Assembly: GCA_951406725.2 (NCBI GenBank)
Contig: OX597833.1
Coordinates: 30,690,001-30,754,000 of the forward strand
DNA length: 64,000 bases
Origin: Octopus vulgaris
Lineage: Eukaryota
Direction: 5' to 3'
Position 1 is the first letter of the stretch. Every line of letters begins with the position of its first letter. Position numbers and translations under genes: made by a program. This document shows positions 1 to 42,775 of the stretch, one piece after another. The notes under the pieces were generated by a model. That model saw only the letters and a program-made list of their open reading frames with translations. It made no database searches and was not told where the DNA came from.

Positions 1-590
1 ACAACAGCATTCAATGTACTTTAGTCTGGTCTTTATCAACTATTTAGTAAAAATGGTTCCTCTGAAAAATTCTAATCCATGATGGAGGCTGTGCACATTG
101 GAATCATTGCAAAGGTCAAAATGTAGGAGACACATTGAACTTATTTGCTGTAGCATAGGTGTTAAATATGAATATGTATTGGCATCCACACTATCCTTTA
201 CCTTCTTTGCATAACTGTTGGTAAAGGCCGCCCGTAATTTTGAAGTCAAAGTTTATATTATAATCACTCCTGCAAAATGGCAGACCCCTTCTCTGCAGGA
301 GAACTACTGAATACAGATAACAGTATACTAGTAACTCATATATCACAGTAAATACAGAGAATCATAAATAAAATATATTGGTCTCAAGATAAATATCAAA
401 TGACAGATGTGCTGTTCCTATTAAGTTGTATTTGAACACTTGATTAATTAATGGTGGTAATATGAAACCTGTATGAGGCTTTATATGTCTTGGTAATGCA
501 ATATAAAAAAAATGGCCTATCTTAGCCAGAGTTCATCATTTAGATAATGATTTCACTGTACCTGATATTTTAATTCAAACTTCTCTACAT

Positions 591-999
591 GGCGTAGCAG
601 TGACTGTGTGATAAGTAGCTTGCTTACCAGCCACATGGTTCCGGGTTCAGTCCCACTGAGTGGCACTTTGGGTAAGTGTCTTCTACTATAGCTTTGGGCC
701 GACCAAAAGCCTTATGAGTGGATTTGGTAGATGGAAACTGAAAGAAGCCCGTCGTATATACGTGTAGATATATATATGTATATGTTTGGTGTCTGTATTT
801 GTCCCCCCAACATTGCTTGACAACTGATGCTGGTGTGTTTACGTCCCCGTAACTTAGCAGTTTGGCAAAAGATACCGATAGAATAAGTACTAGGCTTACA
901 AAGAATAAGTCCTGGGGGCGATTTGCTCAACTAAAGGCGGTGCTCCAACATGGCCACAGTCAAATAACTGAAACAAGCAAAAGAGTCAAGAGAAAGAGT
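591..999 (+). mobile_element. tRNA-derived SINE, family 1, full length
   Basis: Pol III A/B-box-like head (GTGACTGTGTGATAAG...GGGTTCAGTCCC), internal (TA)n tract and GTGCTCCAxCATGGCC...AAAAGAG tail. Near-identical copies at 14135, 34150 and 35099. Confidence 0.9.
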
Positions 1000-1328
1000 A
1001 TGGTGTATGTTAATATCCACTTTATAATTTTCATGCTGCAGGTGTCACTGGGTATTTTTACCATAATCACCCTGTTTCAAACTATAGCTTGTCTTTAAAA
1101 AAAACCTTTATTCATTTTCTCCAGTGTTGTCACTCAAAAGTTAACTTTGCACATTTCAAATGCTTTCATTTTCAGTCCTTAATTACATTAATTTTTTACA
1201 TATTTCCTTCTATTTGTTGTATTTAATTATATATACACTAAAGTATGTAAGGTACATAATTACATGCATATTTATATGTATGTTTGTCTGTGCTAGCTAC
1301 GTAATTTGTATGTGCCTGTGCGTAAAAG

Positions 1329-2947: not shown

Positions 2948-3420
2948 TATAAATAAATAAATAAATAGATATATATATAAAATATAAAGTTATATCTTGA
3001 GTGACAACAACGCTCAAGATATACAACGGACTGGAAATAGAAGTGCTCCAATGAGCTGTATGCACTTTTTTATCCAAGGGGAGGCAATGCAAGCAACAAC
3101 CACAGGAACATCACAAAATTCAAAGATAGACCAAACACATACAAATCTTATATACTAATTTATATCTAAACAGTCTGACATTTAAAAAAATTTTTTAATT
3201 CAGGAATATATAAGTATCATATACAAATAAAAATCATATACAAATAAAAATATAAATATAAATATAAATTTTGCATATAACACGCTTAAAACTGTTAGAA
3301 TAAGAGAAATAAATATAATGATAATAAAATAAAAATATGGCATATCAAAAGACAAATAAAATTCCAGCGAATAGTACATAGAATATAATACATTTACAAG
3401 CTTACAAAAATATAGAAGTC

Positions 3421-3510
3421 CATCTACGGGCTGTTTTGAGGATGTGCCAATTAATAGACATATCAGTACTTAAAATAGTACTTAAAATTGGCACTCCCCT
3501 CATCAGGATG
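3421..3510 (-). ncRNA. Type I hammerhead ribozyme motif (mutated copy)
   Basis: Minus strand: CATC-CTGATGA-GGGGAGTGCCAATT...AATTGGCACATCCT-CAAAA-CAGCCCG-TA-GATG. GAAA is mutated in this copy. Confidence 0.7.
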
Positions 3511-3765
3511 TCCTATACAACACATATAAAACATGAACAAATACACAATCACATACTGGCCATTCTCAGAACACGGCATTTACGTACTCCCAGAAATTTT
3601 TTCAGCGATCCTGAAAGGAACTTTATACGCATACAATTCGATCCTGCCACACAGCGCCACTTGGACCATTTCACTTCAACACTTAATTTATTTTATCTTA
3701 TTTCAATTTTATAAATTCTCCCATATATGCAAAGCCACATATTCAGGTTTGAGTCCTTGACTAAC

Positions 3766-4021
3766 AGCTATTTTTTAAATAATTACATTACTATAGTTTT
3801 ATCTCGTTTACAACTCACTATACTTACTAAACTTAGTTCAATTATTATTGCTTAGCTCTACCTTTTATTGCTATTTCTATTTCTAAATTTCCTAGCTATT
3901 TTTTTATTAATTACATTACTTTAGTTATATCTTGTTTACCACTCACTATACTTACTAAACTTAACTCAATTGTTATTGCTTAGCTCTAACTCTTATTGCT
4001 ATTTCTATTTCTAAATTTCCT
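3766..4021. repeat. Two-copy tandem duplication of about 128 bp in the PLE-1 3' region
   Basis: AGCTATTTTTT...CTATTTCTATTTCTAAATTTCCT occurs twice in tandem. Confidence 0.8.
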
Positions 4022-4471
4022 ATGGAACGTCGAGTGGATCTTATGCATACATGCCGGTATTGCATCAGTGAACTTATTTAACACTGCGTTGTTGTAATTT
4101 TTCAATATAGCATATGCCTCCCTTATGCATAAACCGCATCTAGTGGACCCAATTCTATAAAGGGAGGCATGCGCAAGGATAGCCCATAATATTTTAAATT
4201 CAACATTCCTTTCCTTAAGGTCATTAACATGTAATGCCAATGTTGTAGAGGTCCTATATTTAGGATTGTTGAAAGAGCTCAGGTGGGATCGATACCTCTG
4301 CTTAAAGTCTACTGTGCTTCCAAAATATATTTTTCTCTGGCCTCCTTGAGCCTCAACACTACATTTATAAACTACATTTTCCTGGCGACAATTTCCGCTA
4401 ATCGGACGTTCTGATGGGTCCCTACAATTACATTTCTTCAACCTGCTACGGGGTCCTGTATTATTGATCAC
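3986..4471 (-). pseudogene. PLE GIY-YIG endonuclease domain
   Basis: CNCR...GNC..ENVVYKC...IYFGST..FKQRY..H...TTLA.HV..LK...W.IL...CGLCIRE...LNK is a PLE C-terminal GIY-YIG. It resembles the Hydra-type clade from memory. Confidence 0.88.
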
Positions 4472-5002
4472 TCCAAAACCATGCCCCCCCCCCCAGTACT
4501 ACGATCCACCATATCATTTACACCATCATTCGTACTATTTTCTGGTATAATTATTCTATTATTATTCTTACTATTACCATCATTATTATTTTTATTTTTA
4601 CTAATATTTTTATTACCATCACCACTACTATTAACACCATCATTACCACCCTGATAATCATTATAATCACTAATATCATCACCGACATCATTATTATGAT
4701 TATCTCTACTATTTGCATTATTTGTCACTCCTTCACAATCGATTTCAGAAGACGTACTATTAATATTAATACCATCTTCTATGTCGTTTATGAATTTTCC
4801 CTTAACGCTTCTGTCATCATTTCTATCATTATAGCGCCTTATTTTACTTCTGTTCAACGAAGCAATACTAGATCCGACATTGGGAGTGACTGAGTAGGCC
4901 AGCTTGATTGTTGACTTGTTACATATTGAATAGTACTTATGGTGTTTTGGGAAATTTTCCTTCAATAACTTAAAAAATAGCTTTGGTAAACCTTTCACCC
5001 TT
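4468..5002 (-). pseudogene. PLE RT-EN linker with Asn/Asp-rich insertion, frameshifted relative to the EN
   Basis: LFFKLLKENFPKHHKYYSICNKSTIKLAYSVTPN is a PLE linker motif. The frame changes at a homopolymer near 4484-4494. Confidence 0.75.
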
Positions 5003-5080
5003 AATGCCATTTTCTGAGAATGGCCGGTATGTGATTGTGTATTTGTGTATTTGTTCATGTTTTATATGTGTTGTATAGGA

Positions 5081-5173
5081 CATCCTGATGAAGGGAGTGC
5101 CAATTTTAAGTACTATTTTAAGTACTGATATGTCTAATATTAATTGGCACATCCCCGAAATGGCCCGTATATG
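5081..5173 (+). ncRNA. Type I hammerhead ribozyme motif (second PLE-1 arm)
   Basis: CATC-CTGATGA(5085-5091)-long stem II (GTGCCAATT/AATTGGCAC)-GAAA(5157-5160)-TGGCCCG-TA-TATG. The core is intact; stems I and III carry substitutions. Confidence 0.75.
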
Positions 5174-5629
5174 GACTTCTGTATATCTTATATTTTTGTA
5201 AGCTTGTATATGTATTATATTCTATGTACTATTCGCCGGAATTTTATTCATCTTTTGATATGCCATATTTTTATTTTATTATCATTATATTTATTTCTCT
5301 TATTCTAACAGTTTTAAGCGTGTTATATGCAAAATTTATATTTATATTTTTATTTGTATATGATACTTATATATTACTGAATTTTTTAACTTTTTAAAAT
5401 GTCGGACTGTTTAGATATAAATTAGTATATAAGATTTGTATGTGTTTGGTCTATCTTTGAATTTTGTGATGTTCCTGTGGTTGTTGCTTGCATTGCCTCC
5501 CTTTGGATAAAAAAGTGTATATATATATATATATATATATATATGTAGGTCCCGGGTTGAGTCGGGGTTAACCACAGTAAATAAGGTACTCAATACATAG
5601 CAGAGTAAATTAATTTATTTTATAGAAGG

Positions 5630-5680
5630 AGCTTCTACAGGACTAGAACTGTTTCATTCAAATGAAATCATCAGGAAGCT
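5630..5680 (-). ncRNA. Type I hammerhead ribozyme, intact core
   Basis: Exact reverse complement of 11447-11497. Confidence 0.88.
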
Positions 5681-6199
5681 TTGTGTCAAGAATAGTTTTG
5701 GCATTTATACATTTAGGCAGATTTAAAGGGGTGGTGGTGGGGGACTTTTTGGGGGTAGGCATGGCGCAAACTGTCTTTCTTAGGGAGTGGTCAAAAGAAT
5801 CAGTGATAAAGTAGATAAATGAATAAATAGAATAATAGAATAGAGTTTTAGGTAAATAAGAAGACTATATGCAAGCACACGCACACACATATCTACACAC
5901 ATATATATAAAAAAAGAATATACACACCCATACACACACACACTCATATATATACATACACATACACACACACATATATATACATATGTGTATACATGCA
6001 CACATATACACACATTTCATCCCTTATTTTATTTTTATCTTTATTTTTATTTTGACCTCGACCTACCCACCCGCCGACAAACATTTAGTGGCGGCTGAGG
6101 TCGACCCTCCCGAGGGAGCAAGCCCGCCTAAAAGAAAACCGTTTATTGCCCATCTCCCTTCCTTTCTATCTCTCTTCCCACGGATACGAACACAAACAC

Positions 6200-7023
6200 T
6201 CACACACACACACACACTCCAGACACACACACACACTCACACGCACACCCATACACATACACAAACGCGCATGTTCTATGTATACACATACATATACACA
6301 CACAAGTACTCATAAACGAACACATAAACGTACACATAACTATGTACACACAAAACCACATATATAAATGTACTTCAGTACACATAAACACACATGAACA
6401 TCTGCCCGCATATATAAACGCATATGCCTATATACAGACATTTGTGCATATAAACATACTTACGCATATATACGCATCCATACGCTTATAAATTCATATA
6501 TGCACACATGCACGCATACACGTATACATAAAAGCATACCTACATATACACACATATATATACATACATGCACGTATATACACATACGTACACGTACATA
6601 CAAATACATATCTACACACATACACATACATACAACTATACACATACAGAAATCTGCAGTACTATATATATACACACATATATCTACATATATATATATA
6701 TATATATACATACATATATATATACATACACACACATACACATATGTATATACCTACATATACATACACATATATGCTAACACCATCATATACATACCTA
6801 CATACACATACATCCATATATATCTATACATATACATACGTATATATAAATACATGCACATACTAATACACGTATGCATATCTACGCACATGCACGCACA
6901 CATATCTATCTACATATATAAGAAACCCAACAAGTCCATACATATACACATATACATATACGCGTACATACATACACATACATGTACACACATATATCCC
7001 CATATATATATACATCTATATAT

Positions 7024-7074
<51 letters not shown>

Positions 7075-7992
7075 CAATACACACATATATATATATATAC
7101 ACATACATACACATACACACATATATATATACATATACATACAAACACACACACATATACATACATACACCCACACAGAGGTATACAGGCATATACACAC
7201 ATATCTATACATACATATATATATATATATACACACGAACACACACATATACACATATATACATATATACACACCAATACACATACGCATACATAAATAT
7301 ATACATATGTATATACACATGCATACACATACACACACACGCGTGCATCTATATATACATAAATACATACAGGCATACATACATATACTTATATACATAT
7401 ACATACATGCATACACAAATAATAAATATATATACGTGCAAATACCCATACTCACACATACATATACGCGTACATGTACACATACATACATATAAACAAA
7501 CACATATATATAAATACACATATATATATATACATACATATACACATATATATACATACATACATATACATAAAACACACAAGCGTACATATATATATAT
7601 CCATACATACACATACACACATATATGTACACATTTAAAGATATATACATATGTAAATATACGTACACACATACATACGCATATTCATATTTACACCCAT
7701 ACACATACATATATATATATATATGTACACATACACACCCATAAACATATACACAAGCATATACCTACACGTAAAATGGACCCGTATACACACACACTCA
7801 TACACTTGTACATACACACACATATATATATGTACACACATATATATGCACATATACATATACACACATACATATACATACATACATACATACACATACA
7901 TATTTATCCATAAATACATATATGTACATATACATACACATACATCTACACACACATACATATACACATATATATACATACACACGTATATA

Positions 7993-8024
<32 letters not shown>

Positions 8025-8200
8025 CACACATACATATATATACACATGCATAAGCATGTACACATATACACAAGCACACGCATGCACGCCTTCACATACA
8101 CATGTACATACACTTTTGCACATACACTCACATACAAATACGTATATGCACTCGTATACATATATGTACGCACACGCACATATGCCAGCATCCATATATA
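6200..8200. repeat. Degenerate (CA)n/(TA)n low-complexity tract
   Basis: About 2 kb of mostly alternating purine-pyrimidine sequence; it is the source of the Y/I/H/T/C/V/M ORFs. Confidence 0.95.
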
Positions 8201-8278
8201 TGTGAGTAGTCTTAGGAGAGAAGGTAATTGGGGGTGATGAGGGGATGGTGGTGGGGGTGTTTTGTGGGTGGGGTGTCG

Positions 8279-8539
8279 TCAATCGGGTTGCCGGGTGGGT
8301 CTGTAGTTTTTATAGTTTGCATAAATTTTGTGCATACAGTTTGGGGAGTGTTCCGAGATCTTGTTGAGGAGAGGGCCTTTGGCGAACAAGATCTCCAGGC
8401 TCTCAGAAATGCAAAGGTCACAGCAGGTATGGCCTCCTGTGTACGAACGCGCCCTCTGTAGTAGTCTCCACTTGATCTTGAAGGGGATGGAGTTCCTTTT
8501 AAGGTACCAGATGTGGGCGGCGAGAGTAGTCTGGTTATA
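8279..8539 (-). pseudogene. C-terminal part of a PLE GIY-YIG endonuclease (not in the ORF track)
   Basis: Hand translation: YNQTTLAAHIWYLKRNSIPFKIKWRLLQRARSYTGGHTCCDLCISESLEILFAKGPLLNKISEHSPNCMHKIYANYKNYRPTRQPD*. Homologous to the end of 3986-4471. Confidence 0.85.
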
Positions 8540-8745
8540 TGTATATGTGTATATATATATATATATATACGTTTAAATATTTGTTGTGCAAGATTTTTTA
8601 TGTGAAGTCGTGTGTTGAAACAGATATTGTTATATTTCGGAATGGTCATATTGCCAGTTTAGCCAATAAAAACACACGCACTATATATTTGGTGTTATTT
8701 TGCTTCAGTGATATTTATTTTTTACATTAATCTTAATCTTATTTC

Positions 8746-8790
8746 GGCCAAAGTTCTTTCGTCACACTCCTGTGACCGCATCAGTGGTCC
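8746..8790 (-). ncRNA. Hammerhead-like motif with non-canonical core
   Basis: Minus strand: GGACCA-CTGATGCG-GTCAC-AGGAGT-GTGAC-GAAA-GAAC-TT-TGGCC. Confidence 0.55.
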
Positions 8791-9308
8791 TTTGTTTTCT
8801 TCTCACTTACTTGTGTCTCTCCTTACTAACCGTCAGCCATTTTGTATTTCTATTGTATGTCTTCATTTGCGCATGCTTATATCTCTATGTGCGTCTATGT
8901 TTATTTAGTGTGTGTGTGGGGGGGATGCCTGTAATATTTGTATCTTCTGGTTATATACATTCTTGTAATTTGTATTTTGTTTTTGTTGTTGTTGCTTTTG
9001 TTCTAATTTTATTCATGTGTTTACATCCACCCATTATTATCATTACATATGCTTGTATGTATGTATAACAACAATATTAGTAATAATAATAATAAATCTA
9101 ATCGAGAAAAAAAAAAAAAAAGAATATACATATACATATATATATACATACATATACATATACATATATATATATATATATATACATATATACACACATA
9201 TATACACATATGCATATACATATATATACACATATACATATATATAGATATTCATTTCTATTTCTTTAATTACCTGTGTATTTATTATGTTTGCAGGATC
9301 CACTATTG

Positions 9309-10705
9309 TCATATGTTGTGGTGTGCGCTATTGCTCCATTCTAGTTTTCTATTCAGGCTAGGTTTATTTTCTATTATATGTGTAGCTTCTGTAATTTGTC
9401 TAATTGTTGCATCTGTTCTATGTGTGGACAATATCTTAATCTCTATGTTATTGATTGATCCCCCGTGTTCTTGTTCGGCGTGTTGGTACAGAATCGATGA
9501 GCTTTTACCTTCCTTGAGTTGTCTCCAATGTTCATTCACCCGCTCACCAATGCTTCTTGCCGTTTCCCCTACGTATGTTACTGTCTTGTTACTGCATCGT
9601 CCCTCTATACATCTTATACTATAGACCACATTTCTGGCTTTACAGTTCGTTTGTGGGCTAAATCTACATACAGTGCAATAGTTATCCGTACAGAGAGTTC
9701 TACTAAAAGGATAGGTTCTACCAATTATAGATCTGATAGGGTTGCCTGGCTTTTCAACAACCTTAATTCTTAGTTTAAGTTTATCTAGGGTCCTTCTAAA
9801 GCGGTACGCTAGTTCACCTCCAGGGGTGGTGTCAACGAACATGACACTCTGGTATTTATGGCTATCATACCAAGAGTTGGCCTTCCTTATTTTCTTTTTT
9901 GTCCTTTCTATAGTGTTCCATGACTTGTTCCTATAGAGTGGGCAAATCCCATTCCTATCATTACATAATATATTATCAAATTTCTTCATGGCTCCTTTGT
10001 ATACTCTGATCCTTTCTTTATGGCTGTAACCTGAGAACTGCATGCGGTGAATGAAATACTGTATGTGTCTCTTTAATTCTGTAGGCTCGCACATGCGTGA
10101 CACATTTCTCATTATTCTGACGAGGTCTGCCATCAAAATATTGAATTTGGCATTGCCCGCAATGGCTGAGTTCCGGTGGATCAGGTATTTTGAGGCCATA
10201 GGTTTTGCATAGTATGAATGAAGGATTTGGGTTTTATTTTTCACAATTTCTAGCCAGAGTTCAGTGTCTAGTACTGGTAGTCTATGGTTGGGGTGTTTAG
10301 TGGGGTAGTCTATTGTGACCTTAATACTCTGGTGGATGGAGTTAGCTATTTGCTGGATGCTCTCCATAGTATTAGTTTCTATTACTATATCAACAGTACT
10401 TTCTTGTGGGGGTGCCTTTACTACTATATTGATATCATCAACATAGCGAGAGTACATGTTTACGAGTATGGATTTCTGCAGTAGGCATTCTTTAAGCCTT
10501 CTGTCCCACCATACCATGAAGAGGTTGGCCACATCACCAGCGATACTAACACCGATGGCTGCCCCCTCGTCCTGGGCATATATTTTATTATTAAATTTAA
10601 ATGTGTGGCCTTTTAGGGTAACTCTTATACTAGCTCCTAGTGCATGTGCGATCATTTTCTTTACCTGATGGACATTTGCGGGGCTCCGTATGGCTCTGGT
10701 CCATC
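9309..10705 (-). CDS. PLE reverse transcriptase plus GIY-YIG endonuclease, 5'-truncated but uninterrupted
   Basis: GAAIG (RT motif B), YSRYVDD (motif C), LPVLD, a Cys-rich linker CTDNYCTVC, and NVVY..C..YVGET.R...R..EH...E...LN. The frame stays open upstream of the annotated Met (10655) to the junction near 10705. Confidence 0.92.
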
Positions 10706-11511
10706 TGCGGGCAGATGTTCATGTGTGTTTATGTGTACTGAAGTACATTTATATATGTGGTTTTGTGTGTACATAGTTATGTGTACGTTTATGTGAAAGT
10801 GGGTACACTTATGAATGTATGAGCATGAGTACTTGTGTGTGTATATGTATGTGTATACATAGAACATGCGCGTTTGTGTATGTGTATGTGTATGAGTGTG
10901 CGTGTGAGTGTGTGTGTGTGTGTGTGTGGAGTGTGTGTGTGTGTGTGAGTGTTTGTGTTCGTATCCGTGGGAAGAGAGATAGAAAGGAAGGCAATAAACG
11001 GGTTTTCTTTTAGGCCGGCTTGCTCCCTCGGGAGGGTCTACCTAAATGTTTGTCCGCGGGTGGGTAGGTCGAGGTCAAAATAAAAATAAAGATAAAAATA
11101 AAATAAGGGAGGAAATGTGTGTGTATATGTGTGCATGTATACACATATGTATATATATGTGTATGTGTATGTATATATATGAGTGTGTGTGTGTATGGGT
11201 GTGTATATTCTTTTTTTATATATATGTGTGTAGATATGTGTGTGCGTGTGCTTGCATATAGTCTTCTTATTTACCTAAAACTCTATTCTATTATTCTATT
11301 TATTCATTTATCTACTTTATCACTGATTCTTTTGACCACTCCCCTAAGAAAGACAGTTTGCGCCATGCTTACCCCCAAAAAGTCCCCCACCACCACCCCT
11401 TTAAATCTGCCTAAATGTATAAATGCCAAAACTATTCTTGACACAAAGCTTCCTGATGATTTCATTTGAATGAAACAGTTCTAGTCCTGTAGAAGCTCCT
11501 TCTATAAAATA
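10706..11511 (+). mobile_element. Inverted copy of the PLE-A terminal region (pseudo-LTR)
   Basis: Reverse complement of approx. 5616-6410 with a few indels; ends in an A-run followed by (TA)n. Confidence 0.92.
11447..11497 (+). ncRNA. Type I hammerhead ribozyme, intact core
   Basis: Stem I AGCTTC/GAAGCT, CTGATGA 11453-11459, short stem II (TTC/GAA), GAAA 11472-11475, stem III ACAG/CTGT, and a GUA triplet with the predicted cut after 11491. Confidence 0.88.
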
Positions 11512-11514
11512 AAA

Positions 11515-11557
<43 letters not shown>

Positions 11558-11949
11558 ATATCACAATAATTCCTATACTTCGAGAGAATGTGAAATAATT
11601 CTTTATGGGTGTTTATATATTTATATGTATATTTATATATGTGTGATGGTTGATGTAGCATCACTTATGTAACTAATAAAAATTATGAAACAGCTGTCAA
11701 CAAATGGGAGAAAAATTTATCCTCTCATTTCATTTATCTGATCGATTTTAATACATATTAGTTTGTTCTGAAAATAATGGCTGCTCTAAATGTTTTGTTT
11801 TGAAACACAATTTTATCATAGTATTTTAATTATATTTTACATGAATTTTGACATACTGAATAGTGACTACATTCTCACCAGAAAGTGTGATTCATGATTA
11901 CTCATAAATGCAAAGACCTTCCCTGATAAAGAATGTACCCCTCACCACA

Positions 11950-13993
11950 GATTAGTCATTAGTTATTTCAGACTACAGGCAAGAAGGATTCCAGAAAGCA
12001 AGCCAGTTTGGAAAAGAAGGACCTGGAAGCTTAAGTCAGAGCTTTAGAGATGTCCTAACTGAAACATTTAATGAGAAGGAGGAAGAATTAGACATGTAAC
12101 ATAGAGGATAACTGGAAGTTCCTATGAGACAACTTACTAAGTCAAAGATCAAATTTGTGGCATGAGAACCAGTGGCTTGAAGTGTTTTGGCATTCAGTTA
12201 GTGATTCTACAAAGAAAGAGGCTTGGAAGTACCACTATGAAAGGTTGCTAAATGAAGAGAACTCATGAGAGGAGAGTCTGCTGAAGGTCCCAACAGAGGG
12301 ACCAGCTATCTAAATCAACAGTAGCTTCGTAGATAAAGCCAAGAAGACAGGGAAAGCCTCTATCCCATCAGGAATCACCAGTGAAATGCTTAAAATATCT
12401 GGCAGTGTGGGTTATGGTTTAATTACTCAGTATAGTCAACTGCTACAAAAATAAAGCTGATGCCTTAGACAGAAATAATTACAGAGATATCAAATTGTTG
12501 GATCAGGTGATGAAAGTTACGGAGAGGGTCATAACTCAACTAATTAGGAAAAGAGTTAGGTTAGATGAGATGCAGTTTGGTTTCGTGCCAGGAGAAGCAC
12601 CACTGATGCTATATATCTAGTAAGTCAGCTGCAGGAGAAGTACCTTGCCAAAAATAAACCTCTGTATGTGGCTCTTGTTGACATGGAGAAAATCATCGAC
12701 AGGGTCCCCCACTCCCTTATCTGGTGGTCAATGTGGAAGCTAGAGACAGAGGAGTGATGCTGAGAGCTGTACAAGTCATGTACAGGGACGCTATCAGTAA
12801 GGTGAGGGTTGGCAACAAGTATAGTGATGAATTCCATGTACAAGTAGGAGTTCACCAAGAATCAGTCCTCAGCTCCCTCTTGTTTATCATAGTCCTCCAG
12901 GAAATTAAATCAGGCTGCCCCTGGGAGCTTCTCTATGTTGATGACCTTCTTAAAGCTGAATCACTACTAGAACTGGAGAAAAGATTTCAGGTGTGAAAAT
13001 AAGGTCTGGAATCAAAGGAGCTTTGAGTTAATTTAGCAAAAATAAAAGTCTTAGTAAGTAGGAAAGCAGACAAATCACAAATCCCTTCATGTAGATGGCC
13101 CTGCTCGATATGTAGAAAAGGGGTTGGTAGAAACTCCATAAGGTGTACCCAGCAATATCAGAAAAAGGTTAACAGGGAAAAGTCCTTCTGTATGGCAGAT
13201 ACACAAGTACAATAAACACTAGAAATGTACAGAAAATAGGCTCTATCAAATGTTGGAGGAGATATAATTGATAGCTTTCATTAACTAGGTGACCAAATAA
13301 GCAGTGGAGATGGATGCTCTGAGAGCGTAGCTGCTAGAATAAGAATAGGCTGGGCAAAGTTCAGAGACCTTCCACCTTTGTTGGTAACTAAGGGCTTCTC
13401 TATCAAAGTGAAAGGCAAACCATATGATACCTGTGTGCAAACAGCCATGCCACACGACAGTGAAATATGAACTGTGGCTGCAGAGGACATGCATAAACTT
13501 GAAAAAAATGAAACTAGTAGTCATTATGCATGTACAACAGAGTATAAGCATCTTGAGAGAAAAACTGGGCATAAGAGGCATGGTGTGCAAGAGAGGGGAC
13601 TGTGCTGGTATGGTCATGTGATGCATACGAATGAGGACAGCTGCATAAAAAAGTGCTGATCTCTAACTGTGGAAGAGGGAGACCTAGGAGGACATGGAAC
13701 GAGGTGGTGAAGCATGATCTTTGAATGTTGGGTCTCATGGAGGCAATGACAAGTGATCATGACCTTTGGCAATTTGTTGTGCTTGAGAAGATTCATCAAG
13801 CCAAGTGAAACCGTAGTTGTAGCCAGTGCCAGAGACATGTAAAAGGGACCCACTACACTCTTGGACTGGTTGGCCTCAGGAAGGGCATTCAGCCACAGAA
13901 ACCAAGCAACAATCAGAGTGGAACTAAAATTAGACTGTTGCAGCTCTTTGGCGTACCAGTACCAACATGGAAAGTAGATGCTAAATGATGAAG

Positions 13994-14031: not shown

Positions 14032-15955
14032 ATTTGGGGAGGTTAAGTCCTCATTAAAGATTATATAATCCAAGGTATTCCACTGGTTCAATCCATATTA
14101 TATAATGGTAAAGTCATTTGTATATTTTTAGGATTACTCTTTATTCTCTCTTTTACTTGTTTCAGTCATTTGACTGTGGCCATGCTGGAGCACCGCCTTT
14201 AGTCGAGCAAATCAACCCCAGGACTTATTCTTTGTAAGCCTAGTTCTTATTCTATCGGTATCTTTTGCCGAACCGCTAAGTTACGGTGACGTAAACACAC
14301 CGGCATCGGTTGTCAAGTGATGTTGGGGGACAAACACAGACACACAAACATATACACACATATATATATACATATATACGACGGGCTTCTTTCAGTTTCC
14401 GTCTACCAAATCCACTCACAAGGTTTTGGTCGGCTCGAGGCTATAGTAGAAGACACTTGCCCAAGGTGCCACGCAGTGGGACTGAACCCGGAACCATGTG
14501 GTTGGTAAACAAGCTACTTACCACACATCCACTCCTACGCCTATTATTGAAATTTTTTTTAATATTGAGGGCAAAATAAGAAGAAAATGGAGAATAAATG
14601 GATATAATTACTGATTTATTTGTATGTAGTAGAAAGATGACATTTTATTTTTAAAAAAAAGCATTACAAATAAATTGGAAGTTGAAAGCTCAAAAAAGGT
14701 AAGAAAAATGTAAGAAGACCTACATGTACATTTCTGTCAAACCAATAAGTAGATGGAAATCTCCAAAACATGTTTAATGTCTAGGAAATTGCCACAATCA
14801 TACTATTTCATGCTTGGACTTATTCAGAATTCAAAAAGAGCTAACGCCACTTAGGTGATCATTATATCTTTTGAGGTGAAGTGTGTAGAGTTAGCAGGTT
14901 AAAGATAAAAGCTATGTTTAGAGATTCTATTTGATTGGTAGGTTTTCAATATTTGTAGATATACTTACTATATACAAATACAAAATATTATAATTAGTAA
15001 ACAGATAAATAAATAGAAAAATAAAAAAATAAAAAAATAAAATAAACTTTATGAATGATTCTCATTGGTTTAGTGAGAGATACATATGTTGTCATGATCC
15101 AGGATGGATAAAATTTGAAAAAAGCTGTTGTAATGCTTGACCAGTGGGGCTTACTTATTGATTAGGGTATGTAGGTGCATATTTGAATGCAGTTGAGAGG
15201 TTTGAAGAGAATAGGATAGGAAATATCAAGTATATAGTGGCTCATACATATTTTAATTGAGCATATATGTGCAGAAAGTAAATAAACATGCATATGAACA
15301 CATGTATATCAGAGCACATGATGCATGCATATAGATAAACATAAACACATGCATGCACATATATGAAAAAGTACATGCAGGCATATGGATATGGATACAG
15401 AAAAAACACACCTATATAGGTAGGGTAATGGACAAAATATAACGGAAAGGGGGTTTATAGGGTAAACCAAATGGGGTGGGTGGGGGAGTTCTAATAGGTA
15501 TTGAATTTATAGGTAGTTTATTAAGCTAAGTGAAATAGTAGATGCCTAAAAACCAAATTTGATTTGATATTACTAATACTAGGTGGTAGGATGACAGATT
15601 AACCAAAGATAGGGAAAAAGGGGAATACGGTTTTTAATAATCTATAAATCACTTATATTTAAGTTTGCTGTACACGGGTTTGATATAAATAAAAATAGAT
15701 GTTAGTGTTTACAAGTACACCCGCACAGAAAAACCGACTATTTAAAATTGTATATCAAAATTGTAACTATTCCATCTAATTCTATGTATGAAGTCTGTAG
15801 TTTTTTTAATCACTTCCTTCAAATATTCCTTTTTAGATGGTATCGGAATGTCTTTAAGTGATACATCCAAATTTACATGCTCCATTTTTCCAGCGGAATG
15901 TCCAAAATAATTTTTATATATATATTTTTTGTGGATATCTTATAAAAATTGATAG
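14028..15955 (-). mobile_element. Internally deleted PLE derivative, interrupted by a SINE
   Basis: Minus-strand 15742-15885 reads MEHVNLDVSLKDIPIPSKKEYLKEVIKKTTDFIHRIRW, resembling the SLKNIPIPS...RMRW N-terminus of PLE ORFs. It ends at (TA)n near 14000-14027. Boundaries are approximate. Confidence 0.6.
14135..14541 (-). mobile_element. SINE family 1, full length
   Basis: Reverse complement of the 591-999 family. Confidence 0.92.
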
Positions 15956-17376: not shown

Positions 17377-19330
17377 CAATCAATGAGTTCAGCCATGCTC
17401 ATGACCTGACGGGATGCATAATAGGGAGTATGGACAAAGTGTCCCTACACCCATCCAATGATGTTGATTTTGCTGTGGAGAAAAGTGTGGTGGTGATTAG
17501 TGAGAGAGATGTGGAGTGCCATGGTGTTGACACTGAAGAACTAGGCCTCCTCCTGAGACTGACATGCAAGAATGATTACTTAGATAAAAAATGGCCTTAG
17601 TTGTTTCTACCTCACTAGATCAATAAAAGTAGATCCCCCCCTCCCACTATAACTTCTATGACCAAGAAGACCCCTAAAGAGAAATAGAATGGGTGGACCA
17701 GAGCTTTATGGACCTCTGAAAATAATGATCAGGTTAAAAAGATGGTTGCACAGGTGATGGGTGTAAGTACCAAGACCACACTCAAGGGCCATATATTTAA
17801 ATTTAATAGCAAGATATACACCCAAAAGGAAGGTGCAGCTATTGGTGTCAGTTATTGCTGGGGATGTGGCTAACCTATTTATGGTATGGTGGGATAGGAG
17901 ACATAAAGAGAAATTAGCAGAGAACTCCATAAACCTAACCATGTACTCCCGTTACATGAATACTATCAACATAGCAGTCAAAGCACCCTTACAAGACAAT
18001 GTTGATGATCTAGAAGCTAACGCTATGGAGAGCATCCAGCAAATAGCTAACTCCATCCACCAGAGAAGTAACGATAGACTACCCTAGTAAGCACCCTAAC
18101 TATAGATTACCTGTTTTACACACTGAACTCTGACTAGAAACAAAGAACGGTAAGGTCCCGATCCTTCACTCTCATTATGCCAAACCCATGGGCTCTAAGT
18201 ACTTTGTTCACCAGAATGCAATGATTGCATACAACGCCAAGTTCAACATTCTTATAGCTGACTTGGTGAGAGTGATGAGGAATGTGTCTCACATGTGCGA
18301 CCCTATGGAATTGGAAAGACACTTACAACACTTCATCCACCGCTACAACCAAAGAGACAGGATGAGAGCATACAAAGGAGCCAGGACTGAGTACAAAGAC
18401 ATCACAGAGAGTGATGCTAAAGGGATCTGCCTGCTGTACAGGAGTAAATCCTGGAACAGCACAGAAAAGACCAGTAATAAGATAAATAAGGACAACACTT
18501 GGTATGACAACAAAAAATACCAGAGTGTCATGGCAGCAAACTCGCACGTCTTTTTAGAAAAAACATTAAGTAAGGCTAATCTACGAATTAAAGTAATAGA
18601 AAGGCCTGGTGCCCCTTTAAAATCCCTGATCTGCAATACCTATTCCTTTGATAAGTTCCCCCGTACAATTGTGTTGTATGTAGGATGAACCCACAGGCTA
18701 ACTGTGAGGTTAGGAATGTAGTGTATAGCTTATGATGTACTTAGGATGGTGCAGAAACATGACAACTGCCTACATTGGTGGGAGTTCAAAGAGAAAAGCT
18801 CATCAGTGCTCTACCAACATGCTCAAGCAGAACATGGAGGCTTGATTAATAGCATAGAGGTTAAAGTACTATCGACACATAGAACTGACATGACATTTAG
18901 ACAGATCAAAGAGACTACACACATAGTAGTAGAAAGACCAAACCTCAACAGAAAATGCAAATAGAACAGTAACATCCACTACCACACCACATAACTAGAC
19001 AGAAGGGATGAGAAGTGAGAGGAAAACACAAAATTGTAAAAAATACACAGAAACATACAGGGTAAATAGATATATATGCACTTGCCTGTTATACTTATGA
19101 GAAATAAAAGTAGATGTATGAAAAAATAAATATATAAATATATTTGTCACATACCTGTGATAAATATAAGACAGAGATAAGCAAATAAATAAATGAAACT
19201 ATATAAAGGGCATGGATACATACAACATATGAAGCAGACCCAGACACACACAAAAGAAATTTCATGGATGGTCATATCAATATCAGTAACACAATTAACA
19301 ACAACAGCAGCAATAACAGCAACAACTACC
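17377..19330 (+). mobile_element. Decayed PLE related to PLE-B
   Basis: IIGSMD.VSLHPS (RT motif A), [32 protein letters not shown] and LYQHAQAEHGG, with many stops and frameshifts. Confidence 0.9.
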
Positions 19331-34095: not shown

Positions 34096-34149
34096 CATAT
34101 CAACTTCTGTGTTCCTCTTCAACTTTCTATATATATATATATATATATA

Positions 34150-34546
34150 TACTCTTTTACTCTCTTTTACTTGTTTCAGTCATTTGACTGCGGCCATGCT
34201 GGAGCACCACCTTTAATCGAGCAACTCGACACCGGGACTTATTCTTTTGTAAGCCCAGTACTTATTCTATCGGTCTCTTTTGCCGAACCGCTAAGTAACG
34301 GGGACATAAACACACCAGCATCAGTTGTCAAGCAATGCTAGGGGGACAAACACACAAACACACACACGCATATATATACATATATACGACGGGCTTCTTT
34401 CAGTTTCCGTCTACCAAATCCACTCACAAGGCTTTGGTCGGCCCGAGGCTATAGTAGAAGACACTTGCCCAAGGTGCCACACAGTGGGAATGAACCCGGA
34501 ACCATGTGGTTGGTAAACAAGCTACTTACCACACAGCCACTCCTAC
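34150..34546 (-). mobile_element. SINE family 1
   Basis: Reverse-complement match to the family. Confidence 0.92.
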
Positions 34547-34902
34547 TCCAAGAAAGTTAGGGGTTGTGGGTCCAACCTGCAAAGGGATAATATCTATCCA
34601 ATATACTGTTGGTATAATACCCAATTATTAATACAAAAGTGTTTTTTATTGCATTGCAATTAACTTACCTAGTGTATTAAATGGGTGAAGGTAAAAAGAT
34701 ATTTTACCATTAATTCATATTGCAAATAAGAAAATGGAGAAGCACAATAGTTGGTTCATCAAATTTAGGACATTAAAATGTTAACTTATTTATGTATTAA
34801 AACGATAATTATAATAACATACATACATATAGCATATTATTCTATGCATATAAAAATAAGAATACAAGCAATTATTAAAAAAACATGAATATAAATTATT
34901 AA

Positions 34903-35098: not shown

Positions 35099-35501
35099 GA
35101 GTGGCTGTGTGGTAAGTAGCTTGTTTACCAACCACATGGTTCCGGGTTCAGTCCTACTGCATGGCACCTTGGGCAAGTGTCTTCTACTATAGCCCCGGGC
35201 CGACCAAAGCCTTGTGAGTGGATTTGGTAGATGGAAACTGAAAGAAGCCCGTTGTATATATGTATATATATATATGCGTGTGTGTGTTTGTGTGTCTGTG
35301 TTTATCCCCCTAGCATTGCTTGACAACCGATGCTGGTGTGTTTATGTCCCCGTTACTTAGCGGTTCGGCAAAAAAGACCGATAGAATAAATACTGGGCTT
35401 ACAAAAGAATAAGTTCCGGGTCGAGTTGCTTGATTAAAGGCAGTTCTCCAGCATGGCCACAGTCAAATGTCTGAAACAAGTAAAAGAGAGAGTAAAGAGT
35501 A
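35099..35501 (+). mobile_element. SINE family 1
   Basis: Family match; head-to-head with 34150-34546. Confidence 0.92.
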
Positions 35502-35789
35502 TACATACATATATGGTTATAGATAATTAATTATATATACTGAAATATACATACACATCCATATCCATGAGTACATATATAATATTCATTTATTACTAAT
35601 ATTATTATTATTATTAATATTAGATTACATGTATTCTGCTATTCACAACACATAGTATATGAAATATAAAATATAGAATATAGATGTTTATGAAAGATGT
35701 AATCATGTTAATTTTACAATCAGTATCAGTATATTCGTATATCATACAGTTAATATGGTTATTTCAATATTATTCTGCATATATATATA

Positions 35790-38140: not shown

Positions 38141-40176
38141 CTCGCATTTGGCAGAACTCATAAACATACAATAGCCTTCAACCTGCATACACTACACCAT
38201 CATTGTATTTGCTACATGTCTTGCAAACAACTTGCACATGCAAGTGCTACCAGTCAAAAACTCCGCATACCGGAAGCCATCAATGCACATCGGCCCCCCT
38301 CACTGATATGAGGCCCCGCTTGCTAGATCAGATGGTTATCAAATAAAGCTCAATATTCTTCTAGCCATCGCTCATCGTCTCTTTTTAACCAAATCCAGTA
38401 GCTAGCCTTCTCCACTGTAGTTTGGATATCGGTCATGGTGGTATTGACTTTACGATGAGTTAGGGATGAAGGAACATTAAACCTTTGAAGGTGTTCATGG
38501 GAGAGACATCTGATAGAGGTCAGAGGATAGAGACTTCCAGTACAGGCAGTGGGGGAGAGATAGAATTGGGCACCATGAAACAGCAAAAACTCAGACTGCT
38601 GGTGTGAGAAAACATTAATGATAATAATGAGATAGAGTTGGACTTTTGAATTCTTAACTAGAGTTATAACCAAGTTTTCGGTCAGCCAAACTGTGACAAA
38701 ATTAGATAAATGAATGAATAAATAACAATAATAAATGAGCGTGAAAGAGGGGGAGAAGGGAGAAAGAGTGAGTTGGATTGAGTGTAGGGATCTTAAGTTT
38801 TTTTCTCTAAACATAAGGCATGGAAGATGAAACTGTGTTTATATAGATTGATAATGAAATAGATAGTTAATGAAATGAAATAATAAGGTAATTATAGTCT
38901 GCACTAAAAAAAAAGAGGTTTTAGATGTATGCTAGGTTGGAAAACAAGGTTGCTTATCTGAACATCTGGTTTCTACTCCATGTGGTGAGGTGTGTGTACA
39001 CACACGTGAGGGTTGGTGATAGGAAAGGCATTCAGTCATAGAAAATAGTTCTCAATAAACTCTGTGTGACCCACGCAAACATGGAAATGTGGCAATTAAA
39101 AATAGGATGATGAATATTGTAAAGTGTGTCTACCCTTCCATCTGATCCTTGCTTTTGAGGAAACATTTTCCTGTATCTTTATTTACTCAACCTTCTATCC
39201 TCTGGCCTCTTGCATACTTTCTGTAGAAATATTTCAGTTTATCTATTCCTATTACAAGATGTGTATCTGTCATGAAATTAATTTCACTAATAATATGAAC
39301 CCAATAACAAACATATCTCTCATGAACTGTAACTCTTCTGACTTTGTCCATTCTTTAACCATTTTAAAAGAATCAATATCAACAGCTTCAATAGTTAAGT
39401 GGTTTTTACAGGAAAAAAACCTTCTATGACAATGATATTTATCCACACATTGGTCATGGTTTGTGTCAGTTTGTTGACATGTTTCATCGTTTATGTGTAT
39501 GACCTTGCACACAATCTGTCCTTGAATCTGCCTGACAAATCATTGCCCTAACACCCATTCAAAACATGTTCACCACTTACTTTTCCTCTCTATCAACCAC
39601 TGTTTTCACATTCTCATGAACTTAGCTACCCATTTATCCTATCCAATCCTCTGTACTACTTCATGTATATTCACCTTTCTGTAACTTGACACATCTTCAC
39701 CAGCTTATTTTGTCTCTCTCTCTCCTTTCTCTTTTCCAAGCATCTTCTCAGCAGCAACACACCTGTTTCTGTCTGTTATGTGTAGTTTGGGTTCTAATGG
39801 GATAGACAACCAAATGAAAACCATTGTTATTGTTACGTGTTTATTTACTTCTCATGTTACACGGACTCGACGTTCAGTGTAGTAATACATTATATACTTT
39901 ACACACAGTTGTACTGCTCACTAACAAAATAGTGCCAAGAGTGGGGATGTAGTTTGGCATACGTAAACACATAGATATGAATGTGTAACATCCCTTCTTG
40001 AAAAAAAAATAAAGGGGTCTTTTGGCAGTGAAGACAATATAAGTAGTCTCCCTTACTCTATGGATTGTCAGCCTGAGGTGGCAATCCTACAGCAGAAATC
40101 GTGAGATTATTCTGCCTCTGCTTTGTAGTCTAGCTGTATTAGTTACTTCTCTTTTCATTTTCCCTTTTTTTTTTCT

Positions 40177-41517
40177 TTAACGGTATCGAACCGGTGGCAG
40201 AATGTTCTTTCTCCATCTGGTGGATCTTGTGCTTCGCACCGGTGTCCGAGGTGTGTTGTTGGGCTGCTGATAGGTGGTTGGTGCACGTTGGGGTGATGAT
40301 TCTGTGGGTGTTGTCACTAATGCAGCAGGTGTTGTACACGTTGTCCTCGACAGCTCTGGTGTTGGGCGGATGTGGGCCCTGTTGCGTCTCAGCTGCCTAC
40401 CAGATTCTGTTTCTATTATATATGATCTTGGAGTTACAGCTCTACTGACAACCTGTGCTGGGATCCATGTTTTAGTTATGGGATCTTGAGTATGCACATG
40501 TTGTCCTCCAAGTATCTCAGGTAAATATTGTGCATGTTTGTTGTAATACCTCTGTGATTGTTCTTGAGTGGCTGCTAGCTTTGCCTTTGTCTCTTCCTGG
40601 TCAATAGGAGGTTGGATCTTAGTTGGCAGGGTAGTTTTGTACTTCCTGCCATTCAGCAATTCTGCTGGGGATTTCATATCAGCTCTCAGTGGTGTCGCTC
40701 GTAGGGACAGAAGTGCCAGGTGTGGGTCTTCCTTAGTCTCTCGGCATTTGACTAGTGTTCTCTTCACTGTCTGCACCTATCTTTCTATAAACCCATGGCC
40801 TTTGGGGTAGTGTGGAGATGAAGTTGTAATATTGAACCCATACTCATCGGCTAGCTTTTTGAATTCTTGTGATGTGAACTGGGTTCCATTGTCACATATG
40901 ATCTGCTCTGGTATTCCTTGCTCTGCTAGAAGTCCTCGAGCCACTGTAGTGATTGTTTTGGCTGTCAGGTCTTTCCCTTTTCTCACAAATGGAAATTTGG
41001 AGTAGTAGCAGGCCATTATCAAATACCATTCTTGGCCCTCTGTGAACAGATCTACTCCAATAGTTTGCCATGGCCTTCTTGGGATGTCACTAGATATCAT
41101 TTCCTCCTTTTGTTGTGAGTTTCTGTACTTTTGACAGATGTGGCATGTAGAAACTGTCTTTTCTATGTCTTTGTACATGCCTACTCAATATACTGCTGAC
41201 TTGGCTCGGAGCTTGCATTTCTCCATTCCAAGATGCCCTTGGTGGATCTTGTCAAGAATCTCTTCTTGCATTGACTTGGGTACAATTATTCGGGATCCAG
41301 CCATCAGGATTCCATTCTCCACTGATATATCATCATGGATGGCCCAATATTCACGAATCAGGGGTTGCACCTGATGTCGCTTTTCTGGCCACCCCTGAAT
41401 CACCATCTGAGTAAGGAGCTGAAGTTCTTCATCTTTGCTGGTCTCCTCTTTGATTTCCGCTAGCTTTGTGGTTGTCACATTTACAATGTGGTGGACCTTT
41501 ATGCTTAGTCCTTCCAT
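40177..41517 (-). pseudogene. Integrase region with two in-frame stops
   Basis: GWP, IHQGHLG...CHIC (HHCC), PWQTIGVDLF, ICDNGTQF and SSPHYPKGHGFIER. Confidence 0.92.
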
Positions 41518-41541
41518 CTCCTGTTTGTTTGTGATTGGTGG

Positions 41542-42775
41542 TCAGTCTTTGATAGGCATATCACTGTCAATCCTGCTTGGAGCTGCTTTCACTTCAGCAT
41601 TGATTGACACAATATTTAGCTTTTTGCAGGTATTGAGTCCAAGAATTGCTGACCCTTCTGTTCTTGTGACATAAAAAGAACACTTAATTATTTTTCCTTT
41701 GTGTGTCCCTGTGATAGTTGTTTTACCCAATTGTGGAATCTGGTTCCTCCATACGTAGTGAGGATTACATCACTTGGTGTGAGGATTCCTTTCCTGACCC
41801 TATCCTCTTCTGGGAACATCTTCTTGTATAAGCTGACAGGCAAGATATCACTCTGGACCCCAGTGTCAATCTTTAGCCTTAAGTCTATGTTTGTTCGTTT
41901 CCTGCCAGACTTCTTCTGTATTTTTATTGTTGTGTATGCCTCATCTTCTTTCTTCCGGTTGTCCTTTCCCATCTCATGCACATTTATTATGCCGACTGCC
42001 AAGAATTCCTCCTCTGAGGTGTTTTGTTCCTGTTGTTGTGCATGTATATCTCTTCTATTTCTGCTCCTCTTTGAAAATTGGGGCTTGTATTTCTGGGATT
42101 TTATTAACCTACACATTTTTTCCCAGTGGTTAAGTTTTCCACATGCTTTGCAGTGTGTACCGAATACAGGACATTTTTTTCGGTTATTAAATTCATGCTC
42201 TGTACCACAGTACTGGCATGTTCTTTGTTTGTGGGTATGTGTTCTGTGCCTAGATACAATATCTACACTGCTATCTAGTGAGCTTGTTTGTAAGCTAAGT
42301 GAGGCCATTTGTTTGGTAGTGGCTTCGAATGCTCTTGCAGTGTCTACTGCTTCTACCAACTGGAGAGTGTCCTTACCTATTAGTGATTTTTGTACTTCTT
42401 TGTGGGTACACCCCCATATTAATTGGTCTACAATTCTCTCCTCCCTGTCTTTGAATTTGCATTTCTCTGCAACATTTTTCAGTCTTGACAGGAAATTGTC
42501 AATTGTTTCTTGTGGGTCTTGTTTCAGGCCCTGGAATTCGTATCTGTGAATTCTATGGTTCGACCTGGGCTCTAGGTGCCTTTCAAATTTCTCAAGAAGT
42601 GTGTCTGGGTTATTGCAGTCCGATTCTGACATATCCCAGCTATTGAATAGGTCTATTCCTTTATTACCTGACCATAAAAGGATATAGCTTACCTTCTCAT
42701 CATCATATGTGCCTTTCAGGAAACTTTTGAAAGCTAGTTGAGTTTTTTGTTTGAATTTTTAAAATGCTTCTACGA
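41542..42775 (-). pseudogene. Gag (two Cys/His knuckles) and aspartic protease
   Basis: CQYCGTEH...CP, CKACGKLNHWEKMC, LKIDTG and AILG. There is an early stop and a frameshift. Confidence 0.9.

What the first reader, a model, noticed from the sequence alone, without database searches (positions are those of the whole stretch)
5544..11511. Composite 6 kb palindrome: hammerhead-bearing arms of one PLE family enclose the RT-EN ORF of a different family
Seen: the inverted arms (approx. 5616-6410 and 10706-11511) belong to PLE-A, whose endonuclease tail lies at 8279-8539. The open RT-GIY-YIG ORF between them has a clearly different EN type and its own 3' end and ribozyme-like motif. PLE-B's 5' truncation point is fused directly to the inverted PLE-A arm at CATCTGCGGGCAGATG, itself a small hairpin. 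Inference: three explanations are possible. The RT may have switched templates between families, PLE-B may have inserted at the centre of a PLE-A palindrome, or neighbouring DNA may have been copied during PLE-B integration. If the arrangement recurs, it would be a chimeric or parasitic two-family unit.
Basis: partly seen in the sequence, partly recalled or inferred. Interest (0 to 1): 0.75.

Follow-up and report, generated by a model that had tools for sequence, protein, structure and literature searches.

The report
Young Penelope element nested in older
Two unrelated jumping genes of the Penelope type lie one inside the other here, once in this genome; most likely a very young copy landed in the TA-rich middle of an older mirror-image insertion and lost its own second arm, which is ordinary nesting and not a new two-family element.

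Summary
The anatomy is real. The arms (5614-6410, 10706-11513) belong to a Hydra-type PLE-A, which has its own RT elsewhere. The enclosed ORF is the last 464 of 1312 codons of an unrelated Neptune/Nematis-type PLE-B. The fusion does not recur: one match genome-wide. The arms are each other's closest copies (5/550 substitutions; next 10/542), carry PLE-A's usual tailed and untailed ends, and are older than PLE-B (10 changes in 1100 nt against 1 in 1952; Fisher p=0.0003). The right arm keeps family states the left arm lost, so it was not recently copied from it. PLE-B also sits in PLE-A's microsatellite UTR at two other loci, and 3 of 27 other PLE-B loci have one arm only. Best reading (0.85): PLE-B inserted into an older PLE-A palindrome, and an end-joining step, possibly snap-back (7-bp junction hairpin; 0.5-1.4% of random joins), removed the middle. 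A two-RNA chimera is unlikely (0.06). Reads neither confirmed nor refuted the junction. Earlier scan notes describe two-ended Penelope insertions elsewhere in this genome; my look-ups found none on this fusion. By-product: locus L106 holds a 220-nt inverted copy of neighbouring DNA inside a PLE-B palindrome.

The parts
5518..5545 (.). (TA)n target shared by the PLE-A tailed end and the end of a third Penelope palindrome (PLE-C, 3059-5521)
   Evidence: sequence; self-BLAST
5544..5613 (-). PLE-A 70-nt tail, present at this end only
   Evidence: same tail at one end of other PLE-A copies
5614..6410 (-). PLE-A left arm (3' part of the pseudo-LTR), the part mirrored on the right
5630..5680 (-). Type I hammerhead motif of PLE-A, minimal stems; cleavage untested
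   Evidence: core motif conserved in PLE-A loci; predicted three-stem fold but z=-0.10; no Rfam hit
6411..8278 (-). PLE-A 3' UTR, mostly CA/TA microsatellite; not mirrored in the present right arm
   Evidence: sequence; same layout in L107-L109
8279..8537 (-). C-terminal end of the PLE-A endonuclease (Hydra type: CxxC before E, CxH after N); 5'-truncated at 8537, GIY-YIG core missing
   Evidence: motifs from PMC8557442 section 11
8538..8569 (+). TG/TA linker into which PLE-B is inserted; likely the first bases of the original inverted PLE-A arm, origin not unique
   Evidence: matches the left UTR inverted, but 5 of 13 unrelated PLE-B flanks match as well
8570..8623 (-). PLE-B tail (copy of the ORF start), the only PLE-B 3' end at this locus
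   Evidence: 100% match to positions 1-91 of a full copy
8624..9308 (-). PLE-B 3' UTR / pseudo-LTR, with a non-canonical ribozyme-like motif at about 8746-8790
9309..10705 (-). Last 464 codons of the 1312-codon PLE-B ORF: RT motifs B-E, thumb, CX4CxxC linker, complete GIY-YIG with CCHH
   Evidence: one private change in 1456 nt
10702..10717 (.). Junction hairpin, 7-bp stem; join apparently blunt at 10705|10706 (4-nt homology only if the donor had a rare variant)
   Evidence: unique in the genome
10706..11513 (+). PLE-A right (inverted) arm, ending at the family's untailed end point
11447..11497 (+). Second copy of the PLE-A hammerhead motif, identical to the left one
11514..11550 (.). A-run and (TA)n at the right end, as at other untailed PLE-A ends

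Best explanation
A 5'-truncated copy of a very young Penelope-like family (PLE-B) lies between the two arms of an older, unrelated family (PLE-A), most likely because it inserted into the TA-rich middle of an existing PLE-A mirror-image insertion. Step 1 (inferred from ends and sequence kinship): PLE-A integrated at a (TA)n in the usual two-ended way, giving a tailed main arm (5544-8537) and an untailed inverted arm that began at about 8538 and ended at 11513. Step 2 (shown for the 3' end, inferred for the order): PLE-B cut the TA run about 30 nt into that inverted arm and reverse-transcribed from its tailed start site as far as 10705. I favour joining during integration by alternative end joining (about 0.5 of the 0.85): the PLE-A end TGCCCGCA folds back, copies GATG, and so makes homology to PLE-B's GATGG, leaving the 7-bp hairpin. 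A later deletion that removed an initially complete second PLE-B arm gives the same product (about 0.35). The unit is a dead end: no full RT and no second copy.
For: Junction unique: 1 match with up to 2 mismatches in 2.8 Gb; only the window itself spans it among 40 scored of 608 candidates. Arms are mutual nearest copies among 11 compared: 5/550 substitutions against 10/542 for the next, and both share G at 6269 where 9 of 9 others have A. Age order: 5 substitutions and 5 indels outside microsatellites between the arms against 1 private site in 1952 nt of PLE-B over 27 loci; Fisher p=0.025 (substitutions) and 0.0003 (with indels); right arm alone p=0.0025 with indels. PLE-A shows one tailed and one untailed end, as in 4 of 4 other loci (of 13 examined) where both inverted ends were detected. 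PLE-B is nested in the PLE-A microsatellite UTR at L105 and L106. 3 of 27 other PLE-B loci (L158, L164, L168) are single-armed, keep the tailed end and join their 5' end straight to other DNA. PLE-B internal joins show 0-5 nt overlaps (14 of 20 scorable) or short insertions (6 of 20), as end joining leaves. A stem of 7 bp or more arises in 0.5-1.4% of 20,000 random joins; the junction meets the repeat criteria for SD-MMEJ quoted in PMC5728401 (passages). (TA)n targeting and tail-at-one-end palindromes are described for PLEs in PMC8557442.
Against: No empty allele was seen, and the junctions are not confirmed by reads (inconclusive). On substitutions alone the right arm is not significantly older than PLE-B (2/550 against 1/1952, p=0.12). 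Arms of one PLE palindrome may come from different pseudo-LTR copies (L107 and L109 share insertions crosswise), so arm differences are not a pure clock. The linker cannot be mapped uniquely (5 of 13 controls match). None of 20 PLE-B internal joins has a hairpin above 4 bp, so snap-back is not a family habit and the hairpin test is post hoc. Two of the three other single-armed copies (L158, L168) have microsatellite on both sides and need no large loss, unlike this locus.
Confidence: 0.85

Rival explanations
1. Two-RNA chimera: one integration event primed a PLE-B RNA on one strand (tailed end) and a PLE-A RNA on the other (untailed end), beside an older single-armed PLE-A copy.
For: PLE-B tailed end plus PLE-A untailed end would also make one complete two-ended event. 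Single-armed copies exist, so the left PLE-A could have been one (shown for PLE-B only). The anole PLE enzyme cuts and extends both strands in vitro (PMC11167929).
Against: The right arm is the left arm's closest copy and shares a derived base with it. Only 4 other copies of this subfamily were found among 40 scored. Its private changes have no source copy: next best hit 88%, and a 35-mer with its private base occurs once. None of 27 other PLE-B loci carries a PLE-A arm at its 5' join.
Confidence: 0.06
2. The right arm is an inverted copy of the neighbouring left arm, made when PLE-B integrated.
For: The geometry equals that at L106, where 220 nt of downstream DNA, including a locus-specific junction, is copied inverted inside a PLE-B palindrome.
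Against: The right arm holds the family state at 6019, 6102, 6125, at the 1-nt gap at 5783 and across a 22-nt segment missing from the left arm. It stops at the family's untailed end with an A-run instead of running on into the tail. Ten changes would have had to arise while PLE-B gained one (p=0.0003).
Confidence: 0.03
3. Assembly artefact: two repeats wrongly joined, or a collapsed PLE-B palindrome.
For: No listed contig piece bridges either junction in four public runs (32 pieces listed, 31,296 not shown). Palindromes and microsatellites are hard to assemble (general knowledge).
Against: The same assembly resolves 24 two-armed PLE-B palindromes, some with arms over 2 kb. The window has no N. 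The junction lies in non-repetitive sequence, and the PLE-A ends on both sides belong together.
Confidence: 0.04

Closest known systems
Hydra clade of Penelope-like elements (Craig et al. 2021, PMC8557442, section 11 read) - for PLE-A
   Same: C-terminal GIY-YIG without CCHH, DKT for DKG, RW(K/R) motif, CxCX5C-type linker, CxxC and CxH around E and N, type I hammerhead motif, (TA)n targets, short ORF.
   Different: Long microsatellite 3' UTR (about 2.7 kb with the arm) and a 70-nt tail against the 30-40 nt given in that paper's Fig. 2 legend; placement is by motifs, with no tree.
Neptune / Nematis clades of Penelope-like elements (PMC8557442, passages) - for PLE-B
   Same: C-terminal GIY-YIG with CCHH, CX2-5CxxC linker, (TA)n targets, inverted 5'-truncated arms, tail at one end.
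   Different: 1312-codon ORF with a long Asn-rich insert; non-canonical ribozyme-like core (CUGAUGC); Neptune and Nematis not told apart here.
Tailed/untailed palindromic PLE insertions (PMC8557442 Fig. 2 legend; two RT start sites in Poseidon_Ac, PMC11167929 parts 1-2 read)
   Same: PLE-A here is one such insertion; 24 of 27 other PLE-B loci are two-armed.
   Different: PLE-B here has lost, or never made, its untailed arm.
Snap-back SD-MMEJ junctions (PMC5728401, passages) and MMEJ at 5'-truncated L1 insertions (PMC11702581, passages)
   Same: Apparent blunt join inside a short inverted repeat; loss of target DNA at the 5' end of a truncated retroelement.
   Different: Those data come from fly DSB assays and human L1; the target deletions quoted for truncated L1 are 0-20 bp, far shorter than the loss inferred here. 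No PLE data in the passages I read.

Membership tests
Hydra clade (PLE-A) | C-terminal GIY-YIG EN on an RT ORF | tested here: met
   L100 carries RT then EN in two overlapping frames, split by a frameshift; EN C-terminus matches the window piece
Hydra clade (PLE-A) | DKG changed to DKT; RWK motif | tested here: met
   L100 reads PSDKTKS and RIRWRSFF (RWR in this copy)
Hydra clade (PLE-A) | [quoted passage not shown] | tested here: met
   CCDLCISE ... LLNKISEHSPNCMH in window 8279-8537; no Cys pair in the GIY-YIG core of L100
Hydra clade (PLE-A) | CxCX5C linker | tested here: inconclusive
   L100 has CNFPDKTTC..NNNC, second Cys absent in this aged copy; other copies not read for it
Hydra clade (PLE-A) | Canonical hammerhead in the pseudo-LTR | tested here: met
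   core motif in 15 ends from 13 loci; Rfam silent; cleavage not tested
Hydra clade (PLE-A) | Branches with Hydra RTs in a tree | not tested
   no reference sequences fetched
Neptune/Nematis (PLE-B) | CX2-5CxxC linker before a C-terminal GIY-YIG | tested here: met
   CTDNYCTVC before VVYSIRC
Neptune/Nematis (PLE-B) | CCHH motif in the EN | tested here: met
   CIEGRC in the core, then EH and QH
Neptune/Nematis (PLE-B) | Canonical hammerhead | tested here: not met
   CUGAUGC instead of CUGANGA in 48 of 48 occurrences, no clear stem III
Neptune/Nematis (PLE-B) | RT tree placement, Neptune against Nematis | not tested
   no references; supplementary figures S2 and S7 of PMC8557442 not read
Composite two-family mobile unit | Same junction at several loci | tested here: not met
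   1 match in the genome
Composite two-family mobile unit | One partner lacks its own enzyme and depends on the other | tested here: not met
   PLE-A has its own RT; PLE-B has its own arms in 24 of 27 loci

The most novel reading that the evidence does not exclude
One Penelope integration complex can prime two different RNAs, so that the second arm of an insertion comes from another clade: here a Neptune/Nematis-type cDNA joined head to head to a Hydra-type arm in a single event. With the inverted copy of flanking DNA at L106, this would mean that the middle of a PLE insertion accepts foreign templates, a route to shuffling RT, endonuclease and ribozyme modules between clades.
Probability: 0.06. 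Interest if true: 0.65.

Novelty: new member of a known kind. Interest (0 to 1): 0.2.

Why it matters
As it stands, little: it is one nested insertion among families that share TA targets and carry TA runs in their own UTRs, so they pile into each other. The modest value is mechanistic. PLE-B is young and abundant, and its junctions (two-armed, single-armed, short templated inserts, a 220-nt copy of flanking DNA at L106) form a natural data set for the poorly understood second half of Penelope integration. If the two-RNA reading were true, it would give a direct route for module exchange between PLE clades.

Tried and rejected
Rfam: no hit at gathering in the whole window; at E<=10 over 3000-12000, 134 matches, all microRNA, snoRNA or cis-regulatory models and none a hammerhead. 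Folding z-scores of the motifs are not significant: -0.10, -1.06, 0.91; junction 0.21. Pfam gave only sub-threshold RVT_1 and GIY-YIG hits. A genome search with the PLE-B tail returned no candidates, probably because very common words are skipped, so short PLE-B copies were not sampled; my 27 loci come from the 39 other hits and favour long, young copies. largely repeated. Read support: contigs of four runs (X1, X2, X15, X8) laid on 8400-11100 show no listed piece across either junction, but 31,296 pieces were not shown; loose ends before 10706 in X2 and X15 continue as ordinary PLE-A UTR with a variant also seen in L106, L078 and L090, so they are not an empty allele. Mapping the linker to 8008-8036 failed its control (5 of 13). 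My first reading of a 4-nt microhomology was weakened: 18 of 19 other loci have G, not A, at that base (45 of 46 matches in overlapping records). L172 and L173, the two other exact matches to a left-arm 35-mer, are more distant (82-84%). Three of 23 internal joins were dropped for anchor mismatch. Literature searches listed no paper on cross-family PLE chimeras; 'nested' and 'template switch' do not occur in PMC8557442; the library lacks most subscription papers. No tree was built and no protein database search was run.
Full report
Observation. The window is C20:30690001-30754000 of a 2.8-Gb animal assembly, G000; earlier scan notes call it an octopus, which I did not verify. The two arms align over 5614-6413 and 10703-11513 with 766 matches, 9 substitutions and 12 gaps. 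Between them lie a long CA/TA microsatellite, an endonuclease C-terminus (8279-8537), a 32-nt TG/TA linker, and a second element from 8570 to 10705 on the minus strand with an open frame to a stop at 9309.

Two independent families. PLE-A copies (494 candidates, 40 scored; 91-96% identical to the window) continue upstream into their own RT. Copy L100 shows DKT, RWR, no CCHH, and CxxC/CxH around E and N, the marks given for the Hydra clade in PMC8557442 section 11. PLE-B (608 candidates, 40 scored, 99-100% identical) has a 1312-codon ORF in L115 with a CX4CxxC linker and CCHH, as in Neptune/Nematis (passages). The endonuclease regions share 25% over 147 aa. The window keeps only the last 464 codons of PLE-B, without RT motif A, and only the end of the PLE-A endonuclease. 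PLE-A carries a canonical hammerhead core (15 ends in 13 loci); PLE-B has CUGAUGC in 48 of 48 occurrences. Neither has Rfam or folding-energy support.

No recurrence. A 31-nt pattern across the PLE-B/PLE-A join matches once in the genome with up to two mismatches. In one search all 39 other hits stop at the PLE-B side. A composite mobile unit is therefore not supported.

The arms belong together. PLE insertions often have an inverted truncated copy and a tail at one end only (PMC8557442 Fig. 2 legend); the tail lies between two RT start sites in the anole element (PMC11167929, parts 1-2 of 4 read). Here PLE-A has a tailed left end (5544) and an untailed right end (mirror of 5614, then an A-run and (TA)n), as in 4 of 4 other loci, of 13 examined, where both inverted ends were detected. 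Over non-microsatellite columns the arms differ at 5 of 550 sites; the next copy differs at 10-11; both arms have G at 6269 where 9 of 9 other copies have A. No closer relative of the right arm was found: best other hit 88%, and a 35-mer with its private base is unique.

Order of events. The left arm has three private substitutions, a 1-nt loss and a 22-nt loss where the right arm keeps the family state; the right arm has two private substitutions, deletions of 11 and 8 nt and a 1-nt insertion. PLE-B has one private site in 1952 nt against 27 loci. Fisher p is 0.025 for substitutions and 0.0003 with indels; for the right arm alone 0.0025 with indels but 0.12 without. So the right arm was not copied from the left one when PLE-B arrived, and it is probably older than PLE-B. 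A caution: arms may be templated by different pseudo-LTR copies (crosswise shared insertions in L107 and L109), so this is not a pure clock.

Nesting and single arms are ordinary for PLE-B. PLE-B sits in the microsatellite UTR of PLE-A at L105 and L106, of 13 PLE-A loci read at 10 kb (L106 was chosen because it was already seen to hold PLE-B, so 1 of 12 unselected). Of 27 other PLE-B loci, 24 have two head-to-head arms and 3 (L158, L164, L168) have only the tailed arm, joined at the 5' end to other DNA; none has a PLE-A arm there. The sample favours long young copies. Internal joins have 0-5 nt overlaps (14) or short insertions (6) among 20 scorable of 23.

The junction. PLE-B has G at the base facing 10706 in 18 of 19 other loci, so the join is apparently blunt at 10705|10706, or has 4 nt of homology if the donor bore the rare variant. 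The 7-bp hairpin is what snap-back synthesis would leave: the PLE-A end folds on 3 bp, copies GATG and gains homology to PLE-B. It meets the criteria quoted in PMC5728401 (passages; PMC2943611 seen as a listing only). Such a stem arises in 0.5-1.4% of random joins, but in none of 20 PLE-B internal joins, so this step is an inference from one case. The linker at 8538-8569 has the strand bias of the right arm and matches the left UTR inverted, but 5 of 13 unrelated flanks match equally; the length lost is unknown.

Reads. Public runs hold at most half of the words of 10560-11100. Contigs of four runs gave no listed piece across either junction, with most pieces not shown. The junctions are thus neither confirmed nor refuted, and no empty allele was seen.

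By-product. At L106 a PLE-B palindrome (arms differ at 1 of 211) encloses a 220-nt inverted copy of DNA about 0.5 kb downstream, including that locus's own PLE-A junction, with 5 mismatches. The copy differs from its template more than the arms differ from each other, which I cannot explain. Fold-back joins at L1 insertions are described in PMC11702581 (passages); my searches listed nothing on this for PLEs. PMC13282606 and bioRxiv 10.64898/2026.07.22.740005 were read as passages and added nothing on chimeras. Supplements were not read; those of PMC8557442 bear on the clade of PLE-B.

Verdict. Nested insertion of a very young Neptune/Nematis-type element in an older Hydra-type palindrome, with loss of the middle: 0.85. 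Two-RNA chimera 0.06, misassembly 0.04, copied neighbour DNA 0.03. New members of known kinds; interest 0.2.

Noticed in passing
L106:4418-5112 (G000:C2, about 196,560,400-196,561,100): PLE-B palindrome nested in a PLE-A arm encloses a 220-nt inverted copy of DNA about 0.5 kb downstream; both PLE-B arms stop at nearly the same base (8834/8836 in window terms). Copy against template 5/220 mismatches, arm against arm 1/211. A further 430-nt unidentified insertion lies beside it.
   Followed up: partly
L164:3738-3834 and L111:5000-5030: PLE-B 5' joins with short templated inserts: an inverted 66-nt piece of PLE-B plus repeats in L164, a short inverted repeat in L111.
   Followed up: partly
window 3059-5521: Third Penelope palindrome (PLE-C): arms 3059-3580 and 5003-5521, endonuclease at 3986-4498 with Hydra-like motifs and a hammerhead-like core near 5085-5175; it ends in the same (TA)n as PLE-A.
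   Followed up: no
window 17694-18955: Older relative of PLE-B on the + strand, 67% identical to 9345-10703.
   Followed up: no
window 8746-8790: PLE-B ribozyme-like motif has C in place of the conserved A of CUGANGA in all 48 occurrences; it may be inactive or differently wired.
   Followed up: partly
L107, L109 arms: Tailed ends share one 8-nt insertion and untailed ends another across two loci, suggesting the two arms are templated by different pseudo-LTR copies of the source RNA.
   Followed up: no
L115:2010-5948: Full PLE-B ORF, 1312 codons, with a long Asn-rich low-complexity insert before the RT.
   Followed up: no
window 39774-43180: 217-bp direct repeats, 98% identical, enclosing ORFs at 40177-40776 and 41688-42758 that look like an LTR retrotransposon (likeness recalled, not tested).
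   Followed up: no
window 48773-49329 and 51230-51786: 557-bp direct repeat, 98.7% identical, 2.46 kb apart.
   Followed up: no
window 590-1001, 14122-14541, 34137-34550, 35099-35514: Dispersed repeat of about 410 bp, 86-92% identical, probably a SINE.
   Followed up: no
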